A DNA stretch of 64,000 nucleotides from a virus (taxonomy: Duplodnaviria > Caudoviricetes), in the IMG/VR virus record IMGVR_UViG_3300028601_000023, positions 1-64,000 of that record; one strand, 5' to 3'. Position numbers and translations under genes: made by a program. Below are positions 5,474 through 44,386 of this stretch, piece by piece (the stretch's first letter is position 1; the number at the start of each line of letters is the position of its first letter). The notes below the pieces were generated by a model. It searched no databases. It had not been told where the DNA came from and saw nothing but the letters and a program-made list of their open reading frames with translations.

Positions 5474-5767
5474 TTAATTTTTATTTTGGAATGGCTGCAA
5501 GCTTTCTTCTAATACTTCAGTGTATTTTTTATAGATCAAAATAGTTCTATAATATGCTTCAGCCACTTCTGCTGGTGTAGCATTCTCAGTCAAATAATTG
5601 ATCGGAAAATCAGGCTTTTCTACTTTATCAATTTCAGGCTTTATCATTATTGGAACTTCTATATAGACTGGGCGGTCTACGTATCTGTCAACATATTTAG
5701 TGCATCCTGAAATAAATAAACATAGAACAAGTATTAGCGCAAATTGTGTGCATTTGATCTTAGCCAT
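5474..5767 (-). CDS. o-spanin (Rz1-like outer-membrane lipoprotein)
   Basis: Signal peptide with lipobox ISG-C, Pro-rich mature part, overlaps the upstream i-spanin in another frame. Confidence 0.8.
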   Translation of the reverse strand: MAKIKCTQFALILVLCLFISGCTKYVDRYVDRPVYIEVPIMIKPEIDKVEKPDFPINYLTENATPAEVAEAYYRTILIYKKYTEVLEESLQPFQNKN

Positions 5768-6165
5768 TTAATTGCATCCTCTGAAGATTTAACTGATTCT
5801 GGTACCAACTTCTTTGTTGTATTTATTAATGCTTTGAGTTCGTTGTTCTTTTCAGCAAGTGAAGAATTCAACTTTTCTATTTCAGATTTGAATTCTTCAG
5901 AGTCTTTATTGAACTCTTGAATCATTTTGTTCTGCTCATCTATTGCGATTCTTAGAGATTGTGCATTGGTCATTTCAACAAAATATTCTTTCTGGAGCTG
6001 TTCATAGCGTTCTTGCTGTACTAACATTTGCTTCTCAAACGAAGATTCTTTATATTTTATAGTTCCAAACAGTCCAAGACACAACACAACAAGAGCAGCG
6101 ATAACAATTCGTTCTTTTGTCATGAATGATAAAATTATAGACCACATATAGTTCTCCTTAAACAC
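5734..6165 (-). CDS. i-spanin (Rz-like inner-membrane protein)
   Basis: N-terminal TM helix then long coiled coil; probable start is ATG at 6147 (MWSII) after GGAG. Confidence 0.8.
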   Translation of the reverse strand: MFKENYMWSIILSFMTKERIVIAALVVLCLGLFGTIKYKESSFEKQMLVQQERYEQLQKEYFVEMTNAQSLRIAIDEQNKMIQEFNKDSEEFKSEIEKLNSSLAEKNNELKALINTTKKLVPESVKSSEDAIKWLRSNAHNLR

Positions 6166-6166
6166 T

Positions 6167-6174
6167 CTATTTAT
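6167..6174 (-). promoter_or_regulatory. Late promoter (GATAAATA) for the leftward spanin-neck-terminase operon
   Basis: TATTTATC on + strand; the same variant precedes gp18, gp22 and gp3. Confidence 0.65.
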
Positions 6175-6224
6175 CCAATATATGATTTATAGTCTTCCGC
6201 AAAGAAAACTCTTGTTGCTTTAGC

Positions 6225-6653
6225 TCAAGAGATGAATTTGCGTTTGTTTTGTGGTAATCCACCTTGAGATTCAATATATTTCGCAACAGTTTCTCTAGAG
6301 CAGTCTCCTACAGAACATACAAAATACGACTTGCTCCAAAACATCTTTTCTTTCCAAAATTGATATTCTAATATTTCTCCGTGCATCCTCCATATATGAA
6401 ACACACTATAGGACTTCAACTGTCTAGCGATGTTCGAAACTGATTCTGTTGGTATATAATCAATCATCATATGAACATGATCCCGATCTACTTCTATATG
6501 AGTAATATCAAACTTATCACTTTTGTCTGAACATTCCAACAACAATTTTTTCATATCTTCACCGAATTTGATGAGTAATTTCTTCCTATATTTCACCACA
6601 AAAATCAAATGAATTGATAAGTGGTGTACTGAATTACTAGATTTCTTCAACAT
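6225..6653 (-). CDS. tnpA: IS200/IS605 Y1 (HUH) transposase
   Basis: HLIFVVKYRK, HUH motif DHVHM, FWSKSYFV, catalytic Tyr in AKYIESQ. Confidence 0.96.
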   Translation of the reverse strand: MLKKSSNSVHHLSIHLIFVVKYRKKLLIKFGEDMKKLLLECSDKSDKFDITHIEVDRDHVHMMIDYIPTESVSNIARQLKSYSVFHIWRMHGEILEYQFWKEKMFWSKSYFVCSVGDCSRETVAKYIESQGGLPQNKRKFIS

Positions 6654-6699
6654 TATATAAATTCCTTATTTGATTTTGTGAGAGTGAAATTTCAAAACA

Positions 6700-6707
6700 T
6701 ATAAATA
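6700..6707 (+). promoter_or_regulatory. T4-type late promoter directly before tnpB (likely leaderless mRNA)
   Basis: TATAAATA-GATAT-ATG, no SD. Confidence 0.65.
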
Positions 6708-6712
6708 GATAT

Positions 6713-7858
6713 ATGATTAGATATATTTCATATAAGTTTAGAATAAAACCTACCAAAACGCAAGAATCCTTGTTTATAGAACATTGTGGTGCGTCCCGTT
6801 TTATTTATAATAAACTCCTTGAACAACAAATTTCCTTATATGAAAATGAGAAGAAATTTATGTTCGGTATGGCATTATCTAATGCGGTAAAACCAATAAA
6901 AGAAAATAATGATTGGTTGAAGAAAGTAAACAGTCAATCACTTCAACAATCTGCACTAAATTTGGGTAAAGCTTTTAGTAATAAATTCAAACATAAAACT
7001 GGTGGTTTTCCTAAATTCAAATCAAGAAAGAGTTCTAAACAAGCTTTCTCTGTACCACAACATTTTAATATCCGTGGCAACAAAGTTAAATTGCCGAAGA
7101 TTGGTTGGATAAAAATAGTCAATCATAGAAAACTATCAGGCAAAGCTAAATCTTTGGTAATTTCCCTCGATGTGGATCAATGGTTCGTTTCTATCTTATG
7201 TGAACAAGATGTACCGGTACCTACCATAGATTACAAATCAGTAGTCGGTATTGATCTTGGTATAAAAACCTTTGCTATCACTAGTGATGGTGAAGTCTTC
7301 GAACTACCAAAACTAGAACAAGAAACAACGAAACTAAAGAAACTTCAAAGATCATTTACTAGAAAACAAAAAGGATCAAATAACAGAAATAAAGCTAGAA
7401 TAAAGGTTGCAAAACAATATAGAAAAATCTCAAGAATAAAAGATGATCTAATAAACAACTATGTTAGCTCGATAGCCAAGAGTTACGATGTTGTTTCAAT
7501 GGAAAATCTAAACATTCAAGGAATGAAGAAAAATCATTGTTTGGCACCATCTATTCAACAGCTTCCATGGTTCTCATTCAAAATGAAACTAAAACATAAA
7601 GTCAAAGAACTAGTTGAAGTTGGTAGGTTCTATCCTTCAAGTAAAACTTGTTCTGCGTGCGGTTTCGTCAAGAAAGATTTGTCTCTTAGTGAGAGAACCT
7701 ACCATTGCGAAAACTGTGGTCTGTCGATTGATAGAGACTTGAACGCAGCCATAAATATCAAAGACGCGGCAACGGCGTTGTTTGCTTGTGGAGGAACACG
7801 GGTTCCGGTGAAGCAAGAATCAGGTCTCATTGGAGACCTCAAGCTAGAAAGTCTTTAG
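6713..7858 (+). CDS. tnpB: RNA-guided endonuclease TnpB, apparently catalytically intact
   Basis: HTH N-terminus, RuvC-I GIDLG, RuvC-II MENL, zinc finger CSAC/CENC, RuvC-III DRDLNAA. Confidence 0.97.
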   Translation: MIRYISYKFRIKPTKTQESLFIEHCGASRFIYNKLLEQQISLYENEKKFMFGMALSNAVKPIKENNDWLKKVNSQSLQQSALNLGKAFSNKFKHKTGGFPKFKSRKSSKQAFSVPQHFNIRGNKVKLPKIGWIKIVNHRKLSGKAKSLVISLDVDQWFVSILCEQDVPVPTIDYKSVVGIDLGIKTFAITSDGEVFELPKLEQETTKLKKLQRSFTRKQKGSNNRNKARIKVAKQYRKISRIKDDLINNYVSSIAKSYDVVSMENLNIQGMKKNHCLAPSIQQLPWFSFKMKLKHKVKELVEVGRFYPSSKTCSACGFVKKDLSLSERTYHCENCGLSIDRDLNAAINIKDAATALFACGGTRVPVKQESGLIGDLKLESL

Positions 7859-7896
7859 ACTTCTAGTTGGGTTGACTCAGGTATAAATATACAAAA
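7740..7896 (+). ncRNA. Predicted TnpB omegaRNA (scaffold to about 7876; guide TCAGGTATAAATATAC...)
   Basis: omegaRNA normally overlaps the tnpB 3' end and right end; hairpins AGGTCTC/GAGACCT and CTAGAA..TTCTAG; 5' limit is a guess. Confidence 0.6.
7882..7889 (+). promoter_or_regulatory. Late promoter TATAAATA for the baseplate operon
   Basis: Exact T4 late consensus 20 nt before the ATG at 7910. Confidence 0.75.
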
Positions 7897-7909: not shown

Positions 7910-8788
7910 ATGAATACTACTCCAAAATATGCTATACCAATATCTCCAAAGATATCTTCGTTGTTTTCAGACACTACCGCTGTTGCATATACTAAGTTGA
8001 CCGCAATGACTATTCTTGGTGCCGGAGCTTCTGCATCTACTACAATCAATGGCTCGTGGCAGCTTCCATTGCCGACTGCACTTGATTATAACAGTGACTA
8101 TAATTGGTCAGCTGAAGAACTCGGTCATATTGCAAGCAAACTTATGACAGCTCTAAAAACATCTTATGATTCTGCTACATCAGCATATTCTGCTTCTGCT
8201 GCAGAGGGCAAGGGATTAGTCCGCAGGATGATCGATACTAATGCAGCTATGATAGACGGCTTTATGGATGGAGCTCAGGGTGTCGGTGATATGATGCTAA
8301 ATGATATTGCACGAAAGGCTATGTCTGGCATTTCACAACTGTTGACAGGTGGTGGTGCTCTAGCTAAAGAATATTATAAGCGTCAAGGAAAGACTTATAA
8401 TCCTAATGAACAATTGTACTTTGATGGAGTTTCACTTAGAGAATTCTCGCTTCCGTTTGAGATCACTCCTTTATCTGAATCAGAATCATCTAAATTTTCA
8501 TCTATGATTTATGATCTTCGTCAAGCAGCTGCTCCAAGATATGATTCAGACAAATATTATTTCACATATCCAGACTTCTTTACCGTTGGAATATATGTCG
8601 GCGGAACATTGATTGTCGAGCGTGGACCGTGCGCGATTACATCTCTGAATGTTAACATGGCCCCAGAAGGATCGATAATGTGGAGATCCGACAATAGACC
8701 AGTATCATATTCATTAGATCTTACATTCAAAGAAACTACTGTTGCTACGAAAGAATATGAAGCAAAGACCCGGCTTCTTGGTGTTTAG
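7910..8788 (+). CDS. gp48: Baseplate tail-tube cap (gp48-like)
   Basis: NPNEQLYFDGVSLREFSLPFEITP motif; precedes gp53. Confidence 0.75.
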   Translation: MNTTPKYAIPISPKISSLFSDTTAVAYTKLTAMTILGAGASASTTINGSWQLPLPTALDYNSDYNWSAEELGHIASKLMTALKTSYDSATSAYSASAAEGKGLVRRMIDTNAAMIDGFMDGAQGVGDMMLNDIARKAMSGISQLLTGGGALAKEYYKRQGKTYNPNEQLYFDGVSLREFSLPFEITPLSESESSKFSSMIYDLRQAAAPRYDSDKYYFTYPDFFTVGIYVGGTLIVERGPCAITSLNVNMAPEGSIMWRSDNRPVSYSLDLTFKETTVATKEYEAKTRLLGV

Positions 8789-20800: not shown

Positions 20801-20808
20801 TATAAATA
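20801..20808 (+). promoter_or_regulatory. Late promoter directly before the GIY-YIG endonuclease (likely leaderless)
   Basis: TATAAATA-GATAC-ATG. Confidence 0.7.
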
Positions 20809-20813
20809 GATAC

Positions 20814-21935
20814 ATGAAAAACAAATCCAAATTCTCGAGGCGTCTATTAGACTTTTGGGCACATAAGCTTGAAACGTGTAAATTCCACTATTTCTACATT
20901 ATTACAAACACTAAAAACAACAAAATTTATTGTGGTATTCATTCGACCAACGCTCTAGATGACAACTATATCGGTTCTGGATCTGATTTATTAAAGGAAT
21001 ATCAGAAATACGGCACCGAACACTTTGTCAAGAAGATTATCTGTAGATTCGAAACTAGGCGTCAAGCAAGTGAATTTGAAAAGTTTGTAGTCAACAAAAC
21101 ATTTATTCTATCTCCATATACATATAATAAACGCATTGGCGGAGATAATGGTGGAATCTTGAATCATACAGAAGAAACGCTTAAAAAGATTTCAGATGCA
21201 TCTAAATTAAATATCACTGATTCATTCGCTCGTTATAGTAAAAATAAATGTAGAGTCTTTAATCCTGAATCTGGCCGAAGAAAAATTGTTGACAAAGAAG
21301 AGCTAGAGTTGTATCTTAAACAAGGATTCGTTAGAGGAACCGGAATTAAAAACAAAACGTCTCTAAATAAAAAGATAGTTACAAATACTTCTACAAATGA
21401 ATCTATATTCGTTAATGCAAATAAAGTAGATGAATACACCAACGGAGGATATGTTGTGGGAAATAACGGAAAAGGATCAGACAAGCGCTCTATAGCACAA
21501 ACTGGGTTGAAAGTACTATATAACAAAGAGCTAGACAAACACACAAAGGTAAAACCGGAATTAGTTGATGAATATCTTGAAAACGGGTGGGTTCTTGGAA
21601 TGTCTGAAGAACTAACAAAAGCAAAAGGAACCATTGCACTTGATACAGTTTGGATCACCAATATTTCTACTAATGAATGTATCAAAATTAAGTTAGTAGA
21701 TCTGCAAAGCTATCTTGACAACGGATGGATCAAAAAGAGAACAATGCAATTTTCAGAAGAAGGTTTGAAGAAGTGTGGAGATTCTTCCAGAGGATTGGTC
21801 TTTGTTCATTTACCTTCAACACAAGAATGCAAAAGAGTTCAACCAGAAGAAGTTGATGCGTTGCTTTCAGAAGGGTGGATTAAAGGGCGTCCATTCAAAA
21901 AGAGAAATAGAAAAAAGAAATCGGATTTACTATAA
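20814..21935 (+). CDS. Free-standing GIY-YIG (Seg-like) homing endonuclease
   Basis: YFYIITN..N.KIYCG.H...YIGSG, YNKRIGG; five C-terminal repeats ending GW/GF/GY. Confidence 0.88.
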   Translation: MKNKSKFSRRLLDFWAHKLETCKFHYFYIITNTKNNKIYCGIHSTNALDDNYIGSGSDLLKEYQKYGTEHFVKKIICRFETRRQASEFEKFVVNKTFILSPYTYNKRIGGDNGGILNHTEETLKKISDASKLNITDSFARYSKNKCRVFNPESGRRKIVDKEELELYLKQGFVRGTGIKNKTSLNKKIVTNTSTNESIFVNANKVDEYTNGGYVVGNNGKGSDKRSIAQTGLKVLYNKELDKHTKVKPELVDEYLENGWVLGMSEELTKAKGTIALDTVWITNISTNECIKIKLVDLQSYLDNGWIKKRTMQFSEEGLKKCGDSSRGLVFVHLPSTQECKRVQPEEVDALLSEGWIKGRPFKKRNRKKKSDLL

Positions 21936-21943
21936 TGACTTTG

Positions 21944-22031
21944 TATAAATAAAATCGTATTCCACAAGATACTGATGATGATTCGTTCGTCATCCGGAAA
22001 ACCACCAGATTGCCTCCTCTGGTGGTTTTTT
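21944..22031 (+). ncRNA. Candidate late small RNA (promoter, three hairpins, terminator)
   Basis: TATAAATA at 21944, no ORF, 12-bp terminator stem with loop TTGCCTCC; gp3 has its own GATAAATA at 22044. Confidence 0.55.
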
Positions 22032-22067
22032 GTTTTCTAAGTTGATAAATATGGTTGAGGAGTATAT

Positions 22068-24833: not shown

Positions 24834-25319
24834 ATGTCAAAACGTCCGCAATACTGTAACAATAAGGAATTTTATGAAAGGCTCACATCATGGTTAGATG
24901 AAACCAAAGATCAAGAATCTCCAAAAATCCCAGATGATATTGCTCTGACTATCATGCGTATCTGTGAGAACCTTGGACGATCTGGACGGTTTAAAAACTA
25001 TACATGGCTTGACGATATGATTGCTGATGCCATTTATTGTTGTATCAAAGGTCTTAGAAATTTCAACCCAGAAAAAAGTTCTAATCCTTTTTCTTTCTAT
25101 ACTGCTTTTGCATGGAATGCATTCATTAAACGTATCAATACTGAAAAGTCACGATTAGCTGCTCTTCAGGATTACAAAGAAAATCTAACTGATCTGTACT
25201 ATACGGATCGAAATGATGACTTTTCATATATTGATACTAATGCTCATAATGCAAATATGGAATATTTAAAAGAGAAAAAGAAAAAAATCAAAAAAGATCT
25301 GATGGAAGAATTCTTATAA
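24834..25319 (+). CDS. gp55: Late-transcription sigma factor
   Basis: Y.NNKEF, F.NYTW.DDMI.DA, NFNPEKSSNPFSF.T...NAFI.RI..EK. Confidence 0.93.
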   Translation: MSKRPQYCNNKEFYERLTSWLDETKDQESPKIPDDIALTIMRICENLGRSGRFKNYTWLDDMIADAIYCCIKGLRNFNPEKSSNPFSFYTAFAWNAFIKRINTEKSRLAALQDYKENLTDLYYTDRNDDFSYIDTNAHNANMEYLKEKKKKIKKDLMEEFL

Positions 25320-32823: not shown

Positions 32824-33498
32824 ATGAAAATCTGTCCTGAAACACTTACACTTTTGAAACATTTTTCTACTATCAATTCTGGGATCTCGATTGATCCAGG
32901 CAATCGGATCTTCTCGAAGTCTGAACTTGGCACCATGATTGCTGTAGCAACTGTAACTGAAACATTTGATAAACAGTTCGTTACAAGCTATCTTGCTAAT
33001 TTCTTAGCAGCCGCTTCTCTGTATGACAATCCAGAATTCAGTTTCGAGTCGACCCACGTTTGTATTGAATCTGATGATGGTTCCCAGAAGACGAAGTTCT
33101 TTTACGGTAATCCAGATCTTGTCAATCAGAAGAACAAGCTTCCAAAGCCGCAGCCTGAAGTTGCTTTTAGTTTCACTCTGAATCGTGAAGCATATGCAAA
33201 AGTATTGAAAGCAGCAGCTACCCTTTCTGCTCCAGACATTTGCTTCAAGGCCTCTGATGGAAAGATCATGATCTCTGCTTTTGATCGGAAGATTTCTACA
33301 AGCTCTTCATTTGAATTGCATGTAGCTGATTGTGATCCTGAACTCGATTATTCATTTTGCTTCAAGAAGCAGTATCTCAACCTGATGAATTCTTTTACAT
33401 ACGAATGTTCAATCTCTACTACATGTCTTGCAGAATTCACGGCTGTTGATTCTCCTTTCTCCGAACTTCGTTTCTTTACCGTCGCTGAACAAGTCTAA
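32824..33498 (+). CDS. gp45: Sliding clamp
   Basis: T..LLKHFSTINSGI N-terminus; synteny 45-44-62. Confidence 0.9.
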   Translation: MKICPETLTLLKHFSTINSGISIDPGNRIFSKSELGTMIAVATVTETFDKQFVTSYLANFLAAASLYDNPEFSFESTHVCIESDDGSQKTKFFYGNPDLVNQKNKLPKPQPEVAFSFTLNREAYAKVLKAAATLSAPDICFKASDGKIMISAFDRKISTSSSFELHVADCDPELDYSFCFKKQYLNLMNSFTYECSISTTCLAEFTAVDSPFSELRFFTVAEQV

Positions 33499-38774: not shown

Positions 38775-39449
38775 ATGATATTAGTCTGTGGAGATCTTCA
38801 TGGAAGATGGAGAATGCTAAATGCTCTAATCAACAAAAAACAACCAACTATCATTTTGCAATGTGGAGATTTCGGAATCTTCGAAAAGTTCAACTGTTTT
38901 GTAGAAGACATAAACACACAAAACACAAAGATCTATTTCTGTGATGGAAACCATGAGAACTTTGACATTCTAGACGATCTTCGGAACAAACATGGAAACG
39001 TTCCGATTGAATATGTTAAAAATATATTCTACTGTCCTCGTGGGTCTGTTCTAGAACTACCTGATAAACGTAAAGTATTGTTTATGGGAGGAGCTGATTC
39101 TATTGATAAGAATTATAGAACTATTGGAGTAGATTGGTTCAAACAGGAAATCATCTCTCAATCAGATATAGATGGCCTTCCAGAAACAGATATCGATATT
39201 GTTATATCTCATACATGTCCGCTTTCTGTCCTTGGATATCTTAATGATGCATGGGTCCGAGACATTAGACAAAGAGATCCGTCTGTAGTTGCTTTGGATA
39301 TTGTCTATGAGAAATACAGACCGAAAGAATGGTACTTTGGACATTGGCACGTTTATAAGAAATTTAAACATGAGCAAACAGTTTTTACTGCTCTGTCTCA
39401 TAATAGATCAGAACAACAATGGTGGGTAACTTTACAGGAGGATATTTAA
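38775..39449 (+). CDS. Calcineurin-like metallophosphoesterase
   Basis: GDLHG, CGDFG, DGNHE, SHTCP, FGHWH; start after GGAGG and promoter TTGACA-17-TATTGT (38723). Confidence 0.9.
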   Translation: MILVCGDLHGRWRMLNALINKKQPTIILQCGDFGIFEKFNCFVEDINTQNTKIYFCDGNHENFDILDDLRNKHGNVPIEYVKNIFYCPRGSVLELPDKRKVLFMGGADSIDKNYRTIGVDWFKQEIISQSDIDGLPETDIDIVISHTCPLSVLGYLNDAWVRDIRQRDPSVVALDIVYEKYRPKEWYFGHWHVYKKFKHEQTVFTALSHNRSEQQWWVTLQEDI

Positions 39450-40360
39450 TGTCTAAATTAATGGAAAGGATTTTGAAGAACAGTACTACTAAACATGCCG
39501 CTATGCTTTATGATTCTGTTATGTTTAAGGATAAAGATATTATCTCAACTGATATTCCGGTTATAAATATTGCATTTTCCGGTGAATTAGATGGTGGGAT
39601 CATTTCTGGTTTAACACTTCTTGCTGGTCCGTCTAAAGTTTTCAAATCTATGCTTGCGCTTGTTTGTGTAAAAGCATTTCTTGATAAGTATAAAGATGCA
39701 GTTTGTATTTTTTATGATTCAGAGGGTGGCATTACTCCTGATTATCTTTGTTCGTTGGGAATCGATCCAACGCGAGTAGTGCATATTCCGATTGAACATA
39801 TAGAAATGCTTAAGTTTGATATTGTAAAACAGCTTCAAGAAGTAGATAGAAAGGATAAAGTTATTATTGTTATAGATTCTATAGGAAATACTGCAAGTCT
39901 AAAAGAACTTGAAGATGCTATCAATGAAAAGTCTGTTGCAGAAATGCAGAGAGCAAAAAGCATTAAAGGTCTGTTTAGAATGGTAACACCTTCTTTAGTA
40001 ACCAAGGATATTCCCTGCATTGCTATATGTCATACATACCAAGAGATGGGGCTGTATCCCAAACAAATAATTTCAGGGGGATGTCTGCTTCCAGGAACCA
40101 AAGTTATTTTGGCAGATGGATCAACAAAAAATATAGAAGAAGTCGTTATTGGCGATCAAGTAAAAACTTCTTCTGGTATCTCTGATGTTTACGCTATATG
40201 GAATCCAGACACATTGGAAGATGGTTCTCCTGAATGTTATGAAATAGAACTAGAAGATGGATATATCATTAGATGTTCTGAGAATCACAAGTTCTTGGTC
40301 AATGGAGAATGGAGAGTGGCAAAAGACCTAACCAGCGGAATGGATTTAGATACGATTTAA
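39449..40360 (+). CDS. uvsX: UvsX/RecA recombinase N-half (211 aa) fused to split-intein N-fragment (92 aa)
   Basis: Walker A GPSKVFKS, YDSE.GI, IDSIGN.AS; after ISGG, intein block A CLLPGTKV and block B CSENHKF, then stop. Confidence 0.93.
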   Translation: MSKLMERILKNSTTKHAAMLYDSVMFKDKDIISTDIPVINIAFSGELDGGIISGLTLLAGPSKVFKSMLALVCVKAFLDKYKDAVCIFYDSEGGITPDYLCSLGIDPTRVVHIPIEHIEMLKFDIVKQLQEVDRKDKVIIVIDSIGNTASLKELEDAINEKSVAEMQRAKSIKGLFRMVTPSLVTKDIPCIAICHTYQEMGLYPKQIISGGCLLPGTKVILADGSTKNIEEVVIGDQVKTSSGISDVYAIWNPDTLEDGSPECYEIELEDGYIIRCSENHKFLVNGEWRVAKDLTSGMDLDTI

Positions 40361-40367
40361 TTCTTTG

Positions 40368-40422
40368 TCTCCTCTCATCATGTCTTTGATAAATAATATC
40401 GAAATAACATGATGAGAGGAGA
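40368..40422 (+). promoter_or_regulatory. 16-bp perfect hairpin covering the endonuclease RBS, late promoter GATAAATA (40388) in the loop
   Basis: TCTCCTCTCATCATGT / ACATGATGAGAGGAGA; ATG at 40428. Confidence 0.85.
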
Positions 40423-40427
40423 TTTTA

Positions 40428-41737
40428 ATGAGACAAAGGTTTAATGAAGAACTGCAACAATACTTATGGTCTAAATACCCATTTGAATTTAAATTTTCGC
40501 CGTCAAAAGAACATACGTTTTGGACATTATATAAACAAAAAGAAGATTTTCGTCCTGAAGTAGACAAAAGCTTATCACACATGGCAACGCTTTCAAATTA
40601 TCCATTCTTTTGGTATAATCTTGGATGTAGTATAGACGACGCATTTAAATATTCTGCAACTAAAGGATATAAAGTATGTCAGTGGTGCGAGAAAATTTAT
40701 CATCTTGATACGAGATATAAGTCATGCTGCTCTGAAGAATGTTATAAACAGAATAGATTAAGAGGAAATGCACGATTAAGCGAGTCAAAACTAAAATATA
40801 ATAGCAGAGATCCAAAACAATATGCGATTAGACATAATATTTCAGTTGAAGAGGCGGCAGCAATAGTAGATGATTTTGTTAATGGCGGATCTGTTAGAAG
40901 AAAAGAATATTGGACTAAACGTGGATATACTGAAGAAGAAGCTATTCTAAAAGTATCAGAAGTTCAATCTAGGTGTTCTGCTCGATGTATAGTTACTGGG
41001 AAGAAAGAGGATATTCTCCTGAGGAAGCGAAGACCAAAGTATCAGAAATTCAAAGAGAAGCATGTATGCACTATCACGATAATGCTTCTAAAGAAGTTCA
41101 CCAGCAAAATAGTTCTTGGTGTGTTGATTTTTGGGTCAAACGTGGACATACTATATCTGAAAGCAAACGTATAATATCAACACGAGCCAAAGCATATTCA
41201 AAAGTGCAATTGTTAAAATATACAGAACAAGAAAGAAGAGAGTATAATCCAATGTGTTTAGATTATTGGATCAAGAAACATGGAAGAAAGTTAGCAAAAA
41301 TAAAATATGCTGAATATAAAACAACCGTTTCCAATTTAACTTTTCGGTCAAAAGTTGCTGATTGCTTTTTCTCTGAGTTATCTTCATATTTTAAATCAGA
41401 CACACAATTATACAGTGAAAGAGAAATGTGTTTATTATTACCAAATGGAAATTATATAAAACCCGACTATATAAATGTTGAAAGAAATATATGTGTAGAA
41501 TTTTTTGGTGACTATTGGCATGCAAATCCAAAGAAATATAAAGCAACTGATGTTATTTCTTATCCAAATAAAACAAAACGTTTAGCAAAGGATATTTGGA
41601 CGGCTGATGCAATACGAATTGACAACTTGACTAGAATGGGATATAATGTTTTAATTGTGTGGGAACAAGATTATTATAAAAATTCAAAAGAATTGATAGA
41701 AAAGACTGTACAGGAGATAAAAAATGAAAATATCTAA
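40428..41737 (+). pseudogene. Vsr-like (Hef/EDxHD-type) free-standing endonuclease, frameshifted near 40992
   Basis: Two overlapping ORFs share YW..RGY..EEA..KVSE.Q repeats; C-terminal PDY...CVEFFGDYWHANP and IVWEQD nuclease motifs. Confidence 0.75.
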
Positions 41738-42272
41738 TATTAAACCAATCGGCAAGCATGATGTATATGATATTGCTGTAACAGATGATGAACATTATAT
41801 TCTTGAAAATGGTGTAATATCACATAATAGTGGCCTTATCTATTCTGCAAATCAAGCATTTATTATTGGAAAATCACAAGTTAAAGAAGGAACTGATATT
41901 GTCGGGTACAACTTTACAATCAATGTTGAGAAATCTAGATTTGTAAGAGAAAAATCTAAATTACCTTTTACTGTAACATATGAAAATGGTATTATGAAAT
42001 ACTCTGGTTTACTTGACATTGCATTGGAATCTGGACATTGTATCAAGCCTTCCAATGGGTGGTATTGTCGTGTTATAGATGGTGTTACAGAAGATAAAAA
42101 ATATAGATTGAAAGATACTCATACTGCTCAATTCTGGGATCAGATTTTGAATTCTGAATCCTTTAAAGAATATATTAAAGCACGGTATCAGCTCGGCGCT
42201 GTAAAAATGGTAAGTGAAGCCGATCAAATTGTAGAGAACATTGAAGACGAGAAAGAATATGCTCTCAACTGA
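41724..42272 (+). CDS. uvsX: Split-intein C-fragment (35 aa) fused to UvsX C-half (147 aa)
   Basis: Own AGGAG SD and ATG; block F VYDIAV, block G SHN|S; then GLIYSAN..FIIGK, VEKSRFVREKSK. Confidence 0.93.
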   Translation: MKISNIKPIGKHDVYDIAVTDDEHYILENGVISHNSGLIYSANQAFIIGKSQVKEGTDIVGYNFTINVEKSRFVREKSKLPFTVTYENGIMKYSGLLDIALESGHCIKPSNGWYCRVIDGVTEDKKYRLKDTHTAQFWDQILNSESFKEYIKARYQLGAVKMVSEADQIVENIEDEKEYALN

Positions 42273-43840: not shown

Positions 43841-44386
43841 ATGAAAAGTCATCCACTAGTAGTAAACCTTTATGGCGGTCCAGGAACTGGTAAATCGACG
43901 GCCGCCGCTATGATCTATTCTAAACTGAAAATGCAACACCTTGAAGTAGAACTTGTTACTGAGTTTGCTAAAGATCTAACTTATGAAGAAAGATTTCATG
44001 ATCTTGGAAATCAGATCTATGTTTTCGGCGAACAATATCGTAGAATGGATCGTCTATTCGGATCTGTAGATATTATCATTACTGATTCTCCATTATTACT
44101 TTCGTGTATCTATTCAAAGAATCCTCTATATAAGAACTATCTTGATGTTATGATCAGGCGCGTCTCAGAATATGTAGACCGATATGCTATCAATGTTTTA
44201 CTACAACGAGAATCTGACTATAAAGAATCCGGCCGCAAAGAGTCTATGACAGAAGCAGAAGAGATTCATATGATCATTGAAAATATGCTAAAGGGAGAAG
44301 AAATCGACTATATTACTGTTCTAAGCAATCCAGATCATATTGATAGACTTGCTCAGTATATTCTCGATAAAATAAATAGATCATGA
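43841..44386 (+). CDS. P-loop kinase, AAA_28/NadR-kinase-like
   Basis: NLYGGPGTGKST, VTEFAKDL, ITDSPLL. Confidence 0.75.
   Translation: MKSHPLVVNLYGGPGTGKSTAAAMIYSKLKMQHLEVELVTEFAKDLTYEERFHDLGNQIYVFGEQYRRMDRLFGSVDIIITDSPLLLSCIYSKNPLYKNYLDVMIRRVSEYVDRYAINVLLQRESDYKESGRKESMTEAEEIHMIIENMLKGEEIDYITVLSNPDHIDRLAQYILDKINRS

What the first reader, a model, noticed from the sequence alone, without database searches (positions are those of the whole stretch)
6700..7858. IS605 TnpB apparently wired to the phage late programme like a homing endonuclease
Seen: tnpB has no SD and is preceded by TATAAATA-GATAT-ATG. The free-standing GIY-YIG endonuclease at 20814 is preceded by TATAAATA-GATAC-ATG, matching at 15 of 16 nt; the portal promoter also reads TATAAATAGAT. 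All three RuvC acidic residues and the zinc finger are present. Established: TATAAATA is the gp55-dependent late promoter, T4 homing endonucleases are late-expressed, and TnpB cuts IS-free alleles to drive homing. Inference: this IS has adapted to the phage and makes leaderless late TnpB, acting as an RNA-guided homing nuclease against IS-free co-infecting relatives. Caveat: the motif is AT-rich, so chance is not excluded.
Basis: partly seen in the sequence, partly recalled or inferred. Interest (0 to 1): 0.85.

Follow-up and report, generated by a model that had tools for sequence, protein, structure and literature searches.

The report
Late-promoter TnpB transposon in T4-like phage
A jumping gene living in a T4-like phage has its RNA-guided DNA cutter (TnpB) placed exactly behind the phage's late-gene switch; distant phage-borne relatives keep this layout and bacterial relatives lack it, so the element seems adapted to make its nuclease only late in infection, when it could copy itself into co-infecting phages.

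Summary
The window is part of a 141-kb uncultured T4-like phage that encodes gp55 and gp45 homologues. It carries an intact 1686-bp IS605-type element at 6191-7876, with tnpA on the minus strand and tnpB on the plus strand. The tnpB ATG (6713) has no Shine-Dalgarno sequence and lies exactly 5 nt after TATAAATA. In T4 that box occupies -13 to -6, so the predicted start is the A of the ATG.

All seven distinct lineages of the closest TnpB clade (54-61% identity, on phage contigs) keep the box, six of them at the same 5-nt spacing, although the rest of the spacer has diverged. A second clade (about 40% identity) in phage contigs shows the same layout. None of 74 bacterial or archaeal relatives has the box, and no cellular genome holds a close copy.

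An IS-free allele in a related phage gives the exact ends, a TTTAT target-adjacent motif, and a predicted guide that covers the neighbour's late promoter. A GIY-YIG endonuclease gene has the same layout, conserved in relatives.

Late leaderless expression and homing are well-supported inferences, not shown. Earlier notes from this scan report similar layouts on other phage DNA. I rate it a new variant of known kinds.

The parts
6186..6190 (+). TTTAT, the target-adjacent motif directly 5' of the left end
   Evidence: Comparison of the empty site (L181) and the occupied site (L003). The same TTTAT lies 18-20 nt before the left-end hairpin in L006, L089 and L091.
6191..7876 (+). Complete IS605-type element, 1686 bp
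   Evidence: The ends come from the IS-free allele in L181 and L182. There is a single copy in the 141-kb genome.
6209..6231 (+). Left-end subterminal hairpin (CTCTTG...CAAGAG, with a CTTTAG loop)
   Evidence: Read from the sequence. Hairpins with CTTTAG loops occur at both ends in relatives L006, L089 and L091.
6225..6653 (-). tnpA, a Y1 (HUH) transposase of 142 aa, with HVH at residues 59-61 and a Tyr at 110
   Evidence: Pfam Y1_Tnp, E = 3e-29; motifs read.
6700..6707 (+). TATAAATA late-promoter box; the predicted start is at 6713
   Evidence: The T4 box spans -13 to -6 (PMC2988020). Conserved in relatives.
6713..7858 (+). tnpB, a 381-aa RNA-guided nuclease with an intact RuvC triad and zinc finger, and no SD
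   Evidence: dN/dS = 0.13 against the copy in L003.
6802..6809 (-). Antisense TATAAATA inside tnpB, facing tnpA; a possible late promoter for tnpA
   Evidence: In L006, L004, L089 and L189 an antisense box lies instead in tnpB codons 3-5. Its function is inferred only.
7700..7876 (+). Presumed guide-RNA (omega RNA) scaffold: the 3' end of tnpB plus the right end, with hairpins at 7823-7838 and 7844-7866
   Evidence: RNA fold -54.5 kcal/mol, z = -2.2. One compensatory C-G to T-A change in hairpin 7823-7838 against L003. The right end finishes in GTTGAC, as in relatives. No Rfam family reaches threshold.
7877..7892 (+). Flank that would be read as the guide (TCAGGTATAAATATAC); it covers the late box of the next gene
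   Evidence: In the IS-free allele, TTTAT is joined directly to this sequence.
7882..7889 (+). Late box of the baseplate tail-tube-cap gene (7910-8788), left intact by the insertion
6168..6175 (-). GATAAATA box for the leftward operon (ORF 5734-6165), left intact
20801..21935 (+). Free-standing GIY-YIG endonuclease gene with TATAAATA-GATAC-ATG (ATG at 20814)
   Evidence: The box, the spacer and the first 11 codons are identical in relatives whose proteins are 72-96% identical.
24834..25319 (+). gp55 homologue (late sigma factor)
   Evidence: 39% identity to T4 gp55, E = 6e-20.
32824..33498 (+). gp45 homologue (sliding clamp, activator of late transcription)
40368..40422 (+). A 16-bp hairpin hiding the SD of ORF 40428, with GATAAATA in the loop: classic I-TevI-type late gating in the same phage

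Best explanation
This is an intact IS200/IS605-family element of the IS605 layout (divergent tnpA and tnpB). It belongs to a lineage that lives in T4-like phages.

Its tnpB gene is transcribed by host RNA polymerase carrying the phage late factor gp55, from a TATAAATA box placed so that the transcript begins at, or within a base or two of, the A of the start codon. The mRNA therefore has no leader. Only RNA started at this late promoter has a 5'-terminal AUG that ribosomes can use without an SD. Read-through RNA from elsewhere carries the AUG internally and stays silent. TnpB would thus be made late only, when many replicating phage genomes are present.

The same transcript runs through the right end and supplies the guide RNA. 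The TnpB-guide complex should then cut IS-free alleles (TTTAT followed by TCAGGTATAAATATAC), either after TnpA excision or in co-infecting relatives. Recombinational repair from an IS-bearing genome copies the element back.

Shown here: the anatomy, the conservation, the restriction to phages, and the IS-free allele. Inferred: late timing, leaderless translation, cleavage and homing.
For: 1. Anatomy. The box at 6700-6707 is followed by 5 nt and then the ATG, with no SD. T4 late boxes occupy -13 to -6 (PMC2988020), so +1 falls at 6713.

2. The phage has the late-transcription machinery and uses the box.
- gp55 and gp45 homologues are encoded.
- 13 of 23 TATAAATA copies lie in the 8.7% of the genome that is intergenic, before virion genes.
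- A classic hairpin with a late box in its loop gates another endonuclease-like ORF.

3. Conservation. All seven distinct lineages of the nearest clade (54-61% aa identity) keep [T/C]ATAAATA, six of them with a 5-nt spacer. The loci are window/L003, L189, L089, L091, L006, L004 and L093. The box is the only fully conserved block of the spacer. L004 has lost tnpA but keeps the box.

4. A second TnpB clade shows NATAAATA-N5-ATG in all three members (L102, L164 and the second gene of L089; 100/99 support, about 40% identity). L102 and L089 are T4-like contigs.

5. Absence elsewhere.
- The sister clade lacks the box (0 of 5 loci; four of these were placed in the tree).
- 0 of 74 cellular loci have it, and the closest cellular relative is only 43% identical.
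- In about 100 kb of related phage loci, the only ORFs with this layout are tnpB, the GIY-YIG gene and one gp25-like gene.

6. The tnpB protein is under purifying selection (dN/dS 0.13), and its catalytic residues are intact.

7. IS-free alleles with a perfect TTTAT plus target exist in close relatives (L181, L182).
Against: - There are no RNA data, so neither the start site nor the timing is shown.
- T4 itself has no gene with this layout, so leaderless late mRNAs have no experimental precedent in T4.
- The host is unknown, and so is its capacity to translate leaderless mRNA.
- One clade member has a 9-nt spacer (L093).
- Two clade members sit on short contigs that are phage-like but not proven T4-like.
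- The T4-like Campylobacter phage CP220 has a tnpB without such a box.
- Divergence between the window and L003 copies (5.3%) is close to that of their flanks (7-9%). That fits long residence as well as recent homing.
Confidence: 0.6

Rival explanations
1. The box is an ordinary host sigma-70-type -10 element (TATAAA or TAAATA) that gives a leaderless tnpB mRNA at any time. The likeness to the T4 late consensus would then be a by-product of AT-rich -10 sequences.
For: TATAAATA contains near-consensus -10 hexamers. Leaderless genes typically have a -10 element about 7 nt before the ATG. L089 and L189 have TG just before the box.
Against: - All 8 positions are conserved, including -13 (T or C) and -6 (A), which a sigma-70 -10 element does not need.
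- There is no conserved -35 and no consistent extended -10.
- The motif is absent from all 74 cellular relatives and from the sister clade.
- The same octamer marks virion genes in this phage.
Confidence: 0.12
2. The late promoter is real, but TnpB mainly serves retention within one phage lineage, re-inserting the element after TnpA excision among sister genomes of one burst. Spread into co-infecting IS-free phages would be minor.
For: - This is the role shown for bacterial IS605-family TnpB (PMC10055086, abstract).
- tnpA is intact.
- Divergence of the IS is similar to that of its flanks, as expected for vertical descent.
Against: - L003 (IS present) has flanks closer to IS-free L181 (93-97%) than to the IS-bearing window (91-93%), so presence of the IS does not track the flank phylogeny.
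- L004 keeps tnpB and the box without tnpA, so excision cannot be the only selective reason.
- A 906-bp near-identical tract within otherwise diverged copies shows recent exchange between phages.
Confidence: 0.25
3. The conserved A/T-rich octamer is not a promoter. It would be a translation signal (an S1-binding enhancer for SD-less initiation) or a binding site for an element protein, on an mRNA started further upstream.
For: A/U-rich leaders can promote SD-independent initiation (general knowledge). No transcript data exclude an upstream start.
Against: - An enhancer would not need an exact octamer identical to the late consensus at a fixed 5-nt distance.
- The spacer between tnpA and tnpB is only 33-59 nt, which leaves little room for another promoter.
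- The same octamer and spacing also precede an unrelated GIY-YIG gene.
Confidence: 0.05
4. Chance match in AT-rich DNA.
For: The genome has 36% G+C. Shuffles give about 6 TATAAATA per window, and 5 of 100 shuffles reach 11.
Against: Exact box and spacing recur in six further lineages and in a second clade, while the rest of the spacer has diverged. It is absent from controls with similar G+C.
Confidence: 0.01

Closest known systems
IS200/IS605-family elements with TnpB as an RNA-guided homing nuclease (ISDra2, IS608 and Geobacillus elements; PDB 8EXA, 8H1J; PMC10055086)
   Same: - Y1 TnpA plus a RuvC/zinc-finger TnpB.
- Subterminal hairpins at both ends.
- Insertion 3' of a short motif (here TTTAT).
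- The guide is predicted to be read from the right-end flank.
- The excised or empty site is the predicted target.
   Different: - This element is resident in lytic T4-like phages, and no close cellular copy was found among 185,579 species genomes.
- tnpB lacks an SD and sits exactly behind a phage late-promoter box, which cellular relatives lack.
- The predicted competitors are co-infecting phage genomes rather than sister chromosomes.
[quoted passage not shown]
   Same: A selfish nuclease gene is translated only from a transcript that starts at a late promoter placed immediately upstream. Read-through early or middle RNA is untranslatable.
   Different: In T4 the gate is a hairpin that hides the SD. 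Here there is neither SD nor hairpin, and the proposed gate is the need for a 5'-terminal AUG. The nuclease is guided by RNA, not by protein-DNA recognition. The classic hairpin version also occurs in this phage, at 40368-40422.
ISCaje1-4 of the T4-like Campylobacter phages CP220 and CPt10 (PMC2853527)
   Same: IS200/IS605 elements, some with tnpB only, carried by T4-like myoviruses, with an A/T-rich target (ATTTT).
   Different: No regulatory link to the phage programme was described. The CP220 tnpB I examined has GGTATAATATG before the start, not a late box at 5-nt spacing.
T4 late promoters read by gp55, gp33 and gp45 (PMC2988020)
   Same: The same octamer, no -35 element, an A/T-rich stretch downstream, and gp55 and gp45 homologues encoded in the phage.
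   Different: T4 late genes have leaders with an SD. In T4, ATAAATA-N5-ATG occurs twice and at no annotated gene start.

Membership tests
IS200/IS605 family (IS605-type layout) | Y1 HUH transposase TnpA | tested here: met
   Pfam Y1_Tnp, E = 3e-29. The HVH motif and the Tyr are present.
IS200/IS605 family (IS605-type layout) | Subterminal hairpins at both ends, no terminal inverted repeats, insertion 3' of a short specific motif without a target duplication | tested here: met
   Hairpins at 6209-6231 and 7844-7866. Comparing the empty and occupied sites shows insertion after TTTAT with no duplication.
IS200/IS605 family (IS605-type layout) | Transposition activity (single-strand peel and paste) | not testable with these tools
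   The only evidence is indirect: the same family sits at different sites in different phages and a precise IS-free allele exists.
TnpB / OMEGA RNA-guided nucleases | RuvC D-E-D triad and CxxC...CxxC zinc finger in a TnpB fold | tested here: met
   D181, E264, D342 and C313/316/332/335. E = 4e-57 to ISDra2 TnpB structures.
TnpB / OMEGA RNA-guided nucleases | Structured guide RNA overlapping the 3' end of tnpB and the right end, with the guide taken from the flank | tested here: inconclusive
   A stable multi-hairpin fold (z = -2.2), one compensatory change and a conserved GTTGA[CT] end. No Rfam family matches, and there is no RNA evidence.
TnpB / OMEGA RNA-guided nucleases | TAM-dependent cleavage of the empty site | not testable with these tools
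   The predicted TAM (TTTAT) and target are present in L181 and L182. Cleavage was not assayed.
gp55-dependent T4-type late promoter | TATAAATA octamer at -13 to -6 with no -35 element | tested here: met
   Exact octamer at 6700-6707. No conserved upstream element.
gp55-dependent T4-type late promoter | The phage encodes gp55 and the gp45 clamp, and uses the box before late genes | tested here: met
   The box lies 16-62 nt before the portal, capsid, sheath, tube and baseplate genes and is enriched in intergenic DNA. gp33 was not searched for.
gp55-dependent T4-type late promoter | Late, replication-coupled initiation about 6 nt downstream of the box | not testable with these tools
   No transcript data.
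Leaderless mRNA | The transcript 5' end coincides with the start codon and there is no SD | tested here: inconclusive
   The geometry and the lack of an SD fit, and both are conserved. The 5' end has not been mapped.
Homing endonuclease gene (functional class) | Cleaves the allele that lacks it and is copied in by repair, giving biased inheritance in mixed infection | not testable with these tools
   Alleles with and without the IS coexist among phages whose flanks are more than 90% identical. Inheritance bias was not measured.

The most novel reading that the evidence does not exclude
T4-like phages harbour at least two lineages of IS605-type elements that are fully integrated into the gp55 late programme. 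In this reading:
- tnpB is expressed as a leaderless late mRNA, so that translation is gated to the late period simply by the need for a 5'-terminal AUG.
- tnpA is driven by a second late box on the opposite strand. In several members this box is written into tnpB codons 3-5 (Tyr-Leu-Tyr), and its predicted start falls on the same base pair.
- The TTTAT target motif is the complement of the late-box core, so the elements home to late promoters and rebuild them on insertion.

These would be RNA-guided homing elements specialised for phage-against-phage competition. Leaderless late mRNAs would also be a normal, overlooked feature of some T4-like phages: the GIY-YIG, gp4-like, gp25-like and internal-protein-like genes show the same layout.
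Probability: 0.35. Interest if true: 0.8.

Novelty: new variant of a known kind. Interest (0 to 1): 0.7.

Why it matters
TnpB is the ancestor of Cas12, and its natural role as a homing nuclease has been shown only in bacteria. Spread between co-infecting phages has so far been raised only as a theoretical possibility (PMC13565253).

A phage-restricted lineage whose nuclease gene is conserved behind the late switch would be the first clear case of an RNA-guided selfish nuclease tuned to a viral infection programme. It would parallel the protein-guided homing endonucleases of T4.

It also gives a simple, testable rule for late-only translation without any RNA structure, namely a leaderless start. 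It points to leaderless late mRNAs in T4-like phages, which are not known from T4 itself. In practice it shows that gene callers mis-place the starts of such genes, as they did for three tnpB and four GIY-YIG relatives here.

Tried and rejected
- Megablast of the region against GenBank phages gave no match.
- Peptide-pattern scans of IMG/VR with TnpB and with the neighbouring baseplate protein found no close relatives.
- The Rfam scan gave only a sub-threshold RAGATH-27 match (26.8 bits against a gathering score of 76.1), which I treat as noise.
- T4 was scanned for the same layout as a precedent. It has two sites, and neither is a gene start.
- Campylobacter phage CP220 was checked as an independent T4-like case and has no late-type box. 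Its late promoter is unknown, so this is uninformative rather than contrary.
- I considered whether the box could be coding sequence of an N-terminal extension, as gene callers implied for L004, L089 and L091. I rejected this because the conserved N-terminus starts at the ATG after the box in all members.
- I considered the antisense TATAAATA at 6802-6809 as a conserved tnpA promoter. It is not conserved at that position; relatives have one elsewhere.
- Literature searches found no paper that links TnpB to a T4-type late promoter, and none that describes leaderless late mRNAs in T4-like phages.

Full report
**What the window is.** The window is the first 64 kb of a 141-kb IMG/VR virus record with 36% G+C. 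The record has T4-type portal, prohead protease, major head, sheath, tube, neck and baseplate genes. Its major head protein is 53% identical to that of Desulfovibrio phage 7757 and about 40% identical to those of cyanomyoviruses. It encodes a gp55 homologue at 24834-25319 (39% identical to T4 gp55, E = 6e-20). It also encodes a gp45 clamp homologue at 32824-33498. The T4-type late transcription apparatus is therefore plausibly present. I did not search for gp33.

**The observation.**
- tnpA (Y1 transposase, 6225-6653, minus strand) and tnpB (6713-7858, plus strand) are divergent.
- The tnpB ATG is preceded by TATAAATA-GATAT and has no purine-rich SD.
- The GIY-YIG ORF at 20814 is preceded by TATAAATA-GATAC, a 15/16 match.
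- The portal promoter reads TATAAATAGAT.
- TnpB has the RuvC triad (D181, E264, D342) and the four zinc-finger cysteines. It matches ISDra2 TnpB structures at E = 4e-57.

The T4 review places the octamer at -13 to -6 ('A(-13) in place of T at nine sites', PMC2988020). Five bases after the box are therefore -5 to -1, and the A of the ATG is +1. The leaderless geometry is exact.

**Is TATAAATA a promoter in this phage?** Ten of the 11 copies in the window are on the strand of the late genes. In the whole genome, 13 of 23 copies lie in the 8.7% that is intergenic, whereas control A/T-rich octamers that do not overlap the box are 0-26% intergenic. Copies of NATAAATA lie 16-62 nt before the baseplate, sheath, portal, capsid and tube genes, each of which has a normal SD. 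At 40368-40422 a perfect 16-bp hairpin hides the SD of an ORF that sits between two uvsX halves bearing intein fragments, and GATAAATA lies in its loop. This is the I-TevI scheme of T4 (PMC2988022). It only makes sense if the box starts transcription a few bases downstream.

**Comparative test.** The closest TnpB proteins in a 5.8-billion-protein collection are one at 93% identity and then a group at 54-62%. I retrieved the DNA for these.
- L003 (93%) is the same element at the same site in a related phage.
- The others are L006, L004, L089, L091, L093 and L189. They sit at unrelated sites on contigs with T4 UvsX, DnaB, gp13 or Y07E genes, or on short phage-like contigs.

All of them carry [T/C]ATAAATA just before the true start. 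Six lineages have a 5-nt spacer (GATAT, AGTAT, ACTGT, ATAAT, GATGT, GATGT) and one has 9 nt. In three of them the gene caller had extended the ORF upstream through the box, which hid the pattern. Among five divergent members the box is the only fully conserved block of the spacer. A weaker TCC block is the SD of tnpA on the other strand. L004 has lost tnpA but keeps the box.

A maximum-likelihood tree groups these members (support 90/87). It places next to them a 100/100-supported clade whose four placed members with DNA in hand lack the box; a fifth locus of that group (L012) also lacks it. A second, distant clade shows NATAAATA-N5-ATG in all three members. It consists of L102, L164 and the second tnpB of L089, at about 40% identity to the query, with 100/99 support. 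L102 carries a T4-type prohead protease and L089 is T4-like.

Among about 115 other distinct viral and metagenomic loci, only L102, L164 and L115 show the layout. Among 74 distinct loci from 185,579 bacterial and archaeal species genomes, none does, and the best cellular match is only 43% identical.

**The element and its target.** A close relative (L181) has the same gene order with no IS. There the sequence reads TTTAT joined directly to TCAGGTATAAATATAC. This fixes the element at 6191-7876 (1686 bp), inserted 3' of TTTAT without a duplication. The left hairpin is at 6209-6231 and the right hairpin at 7844-7866.

Relatives share CTTTAG-loop hairpins at both ends, a TTTAT 18-20 nt before the left hairpin, and a GTTGA[CT] terminus. 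The 3' 177 nt fold into a row of hairpins (z = -2.2), and one stem shows a compensatory change against L003. By analogy with characterised TnpB systems, the guide would be the flank, which here covers the late box of the tail-tube-cap gene.

The insertion lies between two divergent late promoters and breaks neither. In L003 the left junction even reads as a perfect TATAAATA on the minus strand.

**Selection and history.** Against L003, tnpB has dN/dS = 0.13 (dS = 0.27), so the protein is maintained. The two copies are a mosaic. From 6166 to 7071 there are only 3 mismatches in 906 nt, then about 7.5% divergence, and the flanks differ by 7-9%. The flanks of L003 are closer to the IS-free L181 than to the window. 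This shows recombination between related phages at this locus. It does not by itself prove homing.

**The GIY-YIG gene.** In relatives whose proteins are 72-96% identical, the box, the spacer, the ATG and the first 11 codons are identical, while sequence further upstream varies. Gene callers had chosen a downstream TTG or ATG. The layout is therefore kept there too.

Genome-wide, the same layout precedes a gp4-like gene (121175, minus strand) and a gp25-like gene (125959). With 4-nt spacing it precedes an ORF at 44383. It is thus not exclusive to selfish genes. In about 100 kb of related loci, however, it marks only tnpB, the GIY-YIG gene and gp25. T4 itself has no gene with this layout.

**Mechanism proposed.** Late in infection, gp55-RNA polymerase starts at the A of the AUG. 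Only this RNA is translatable, because read-through RNA has neither an SD nor a 5'-terminal AUG. The transcript continues into the right end and yields the guide RNA; TnpB is known to process its own mRNA (PMC10278001, abstract). The complex then cuts TTTAT-plus-target alleles, and recombination restores or spreads the element. The anatomy, conservation and target allele are shown here. The timing, translation and cutting are inferred.

**Comparison and novelty.** Three things are already known:
- IS200/IS605 elements occur in T4-like phages (PMC2853527).
- TnpB homing has been shown in bacteria (PMC10055086).
- Homing between co-infecting phages has been suggested in theory (PMC13565253).

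I found no paper that describes a conserved late promoter before tnpB, or leaderless late mRNAs in T4-like phages. Earlier notes of this scan report similar layouts in other phage genomes. They were leads only and were not used as evidence. I rate this a new variant of known kinds, with about 0.6 confidence in the late leaderless reading and about 0.5 in inter-phage homing.

Noticed in passing
window 6166-7071 against L003: The two copies of the element are a mosaic. The left end, tnpA, the spacer and the first 360 nt of tnpB differ at only 3 of 906 positions. The rest of tnpB differs by about 7.5% and the flanks by 7-9%. This indicates a recent recombination tract that starts near the left junction.
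   Followed up: partly
L176 and L178 (relatives); window 7816-7876 and genome position 122008: Some close relatives keep only the last 61 nt of the element in front of the tail-tube-cap gene. This remnant is joined to an inverted block that lies at 122-127 kb in this genome. A large rearrangement therefore has one breakpoint inside the IS.
   Followed up: partly
L006 6007-6014, L004 6046-6053, L089 616-623, L189 497-504; window 6802-6809 (minus strand): In four relatives, tnpB codons 3-5 (Tyr-Leu-Tyr, TAT TTA TA) spell TATAAATA on the opposite strand. Its predicted start falls on the tnpB ATG and points at tnpA, 33-47 nt away. The window lacks this but has an antisense box 97 nt into tnpB. This may be a pair of facing late promoters that cannot both be occupied.
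   Followed up: partly
window 6180-6191 (minus strand); L003 left junction: The TTTAT target is the complement of the late-box core. After insertion, the first base of the left end plus the target reads TATAAATA in L003 (TATAAATC in the window) on the minus strand, so the outward-facing promoter is rebuilt.
   Followed up: partly
genome 121175 (minus), genome 125959 (plus), window 44383: A gp4-like head-completion gene (AATAAATA-TATAC-ATG), a gp25-like baseplate gene (GATAAATA-GAATT-ATG) and an ORF at 44383 (AATAAATA-GATC-ATG) also lack an evident SD and sit at leaderless distance from a late-type box.
   Followed up: partly
window 39419-42272: uvsX is split. The N-terminal half ends in Hint/intein fragments, an ORF of 248 aa with no Pfam family follows behind an SD-hiding hairpin with a late box in its loop, and the C-terminal UvsX domain comes next. 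This resembles the 'fractured gene' arrangement with split inteins (title of PMC2677866).
   Followed up: partly
L183, L184, L186 and L004, L089, L091: Automatic gene calls mis-place the starts of genes with this layout. The GIY-YIG genes were started 11 codons too late, and three tnpB genes 11-25 codons too early.
   Followed up: yes
L004 5985-6036; L091 5601-5924: One relative has lost tnpA and retains only a trace of its first codons. Another has a truncated 107-aa tnpA. Both keep tnpB and the box, which suggests decay towards tnpB-only elements.
   Followed up: no
window 21944-22043: A perfect TATAAATA with no ORF behind it lies 100 nt before a second box (GATAAATA, 22044) that serves the tail-tube gene. 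Another first-stage note (e1-5756012) proposes a small late RNA here. I did not examine it.
   Followed up: no
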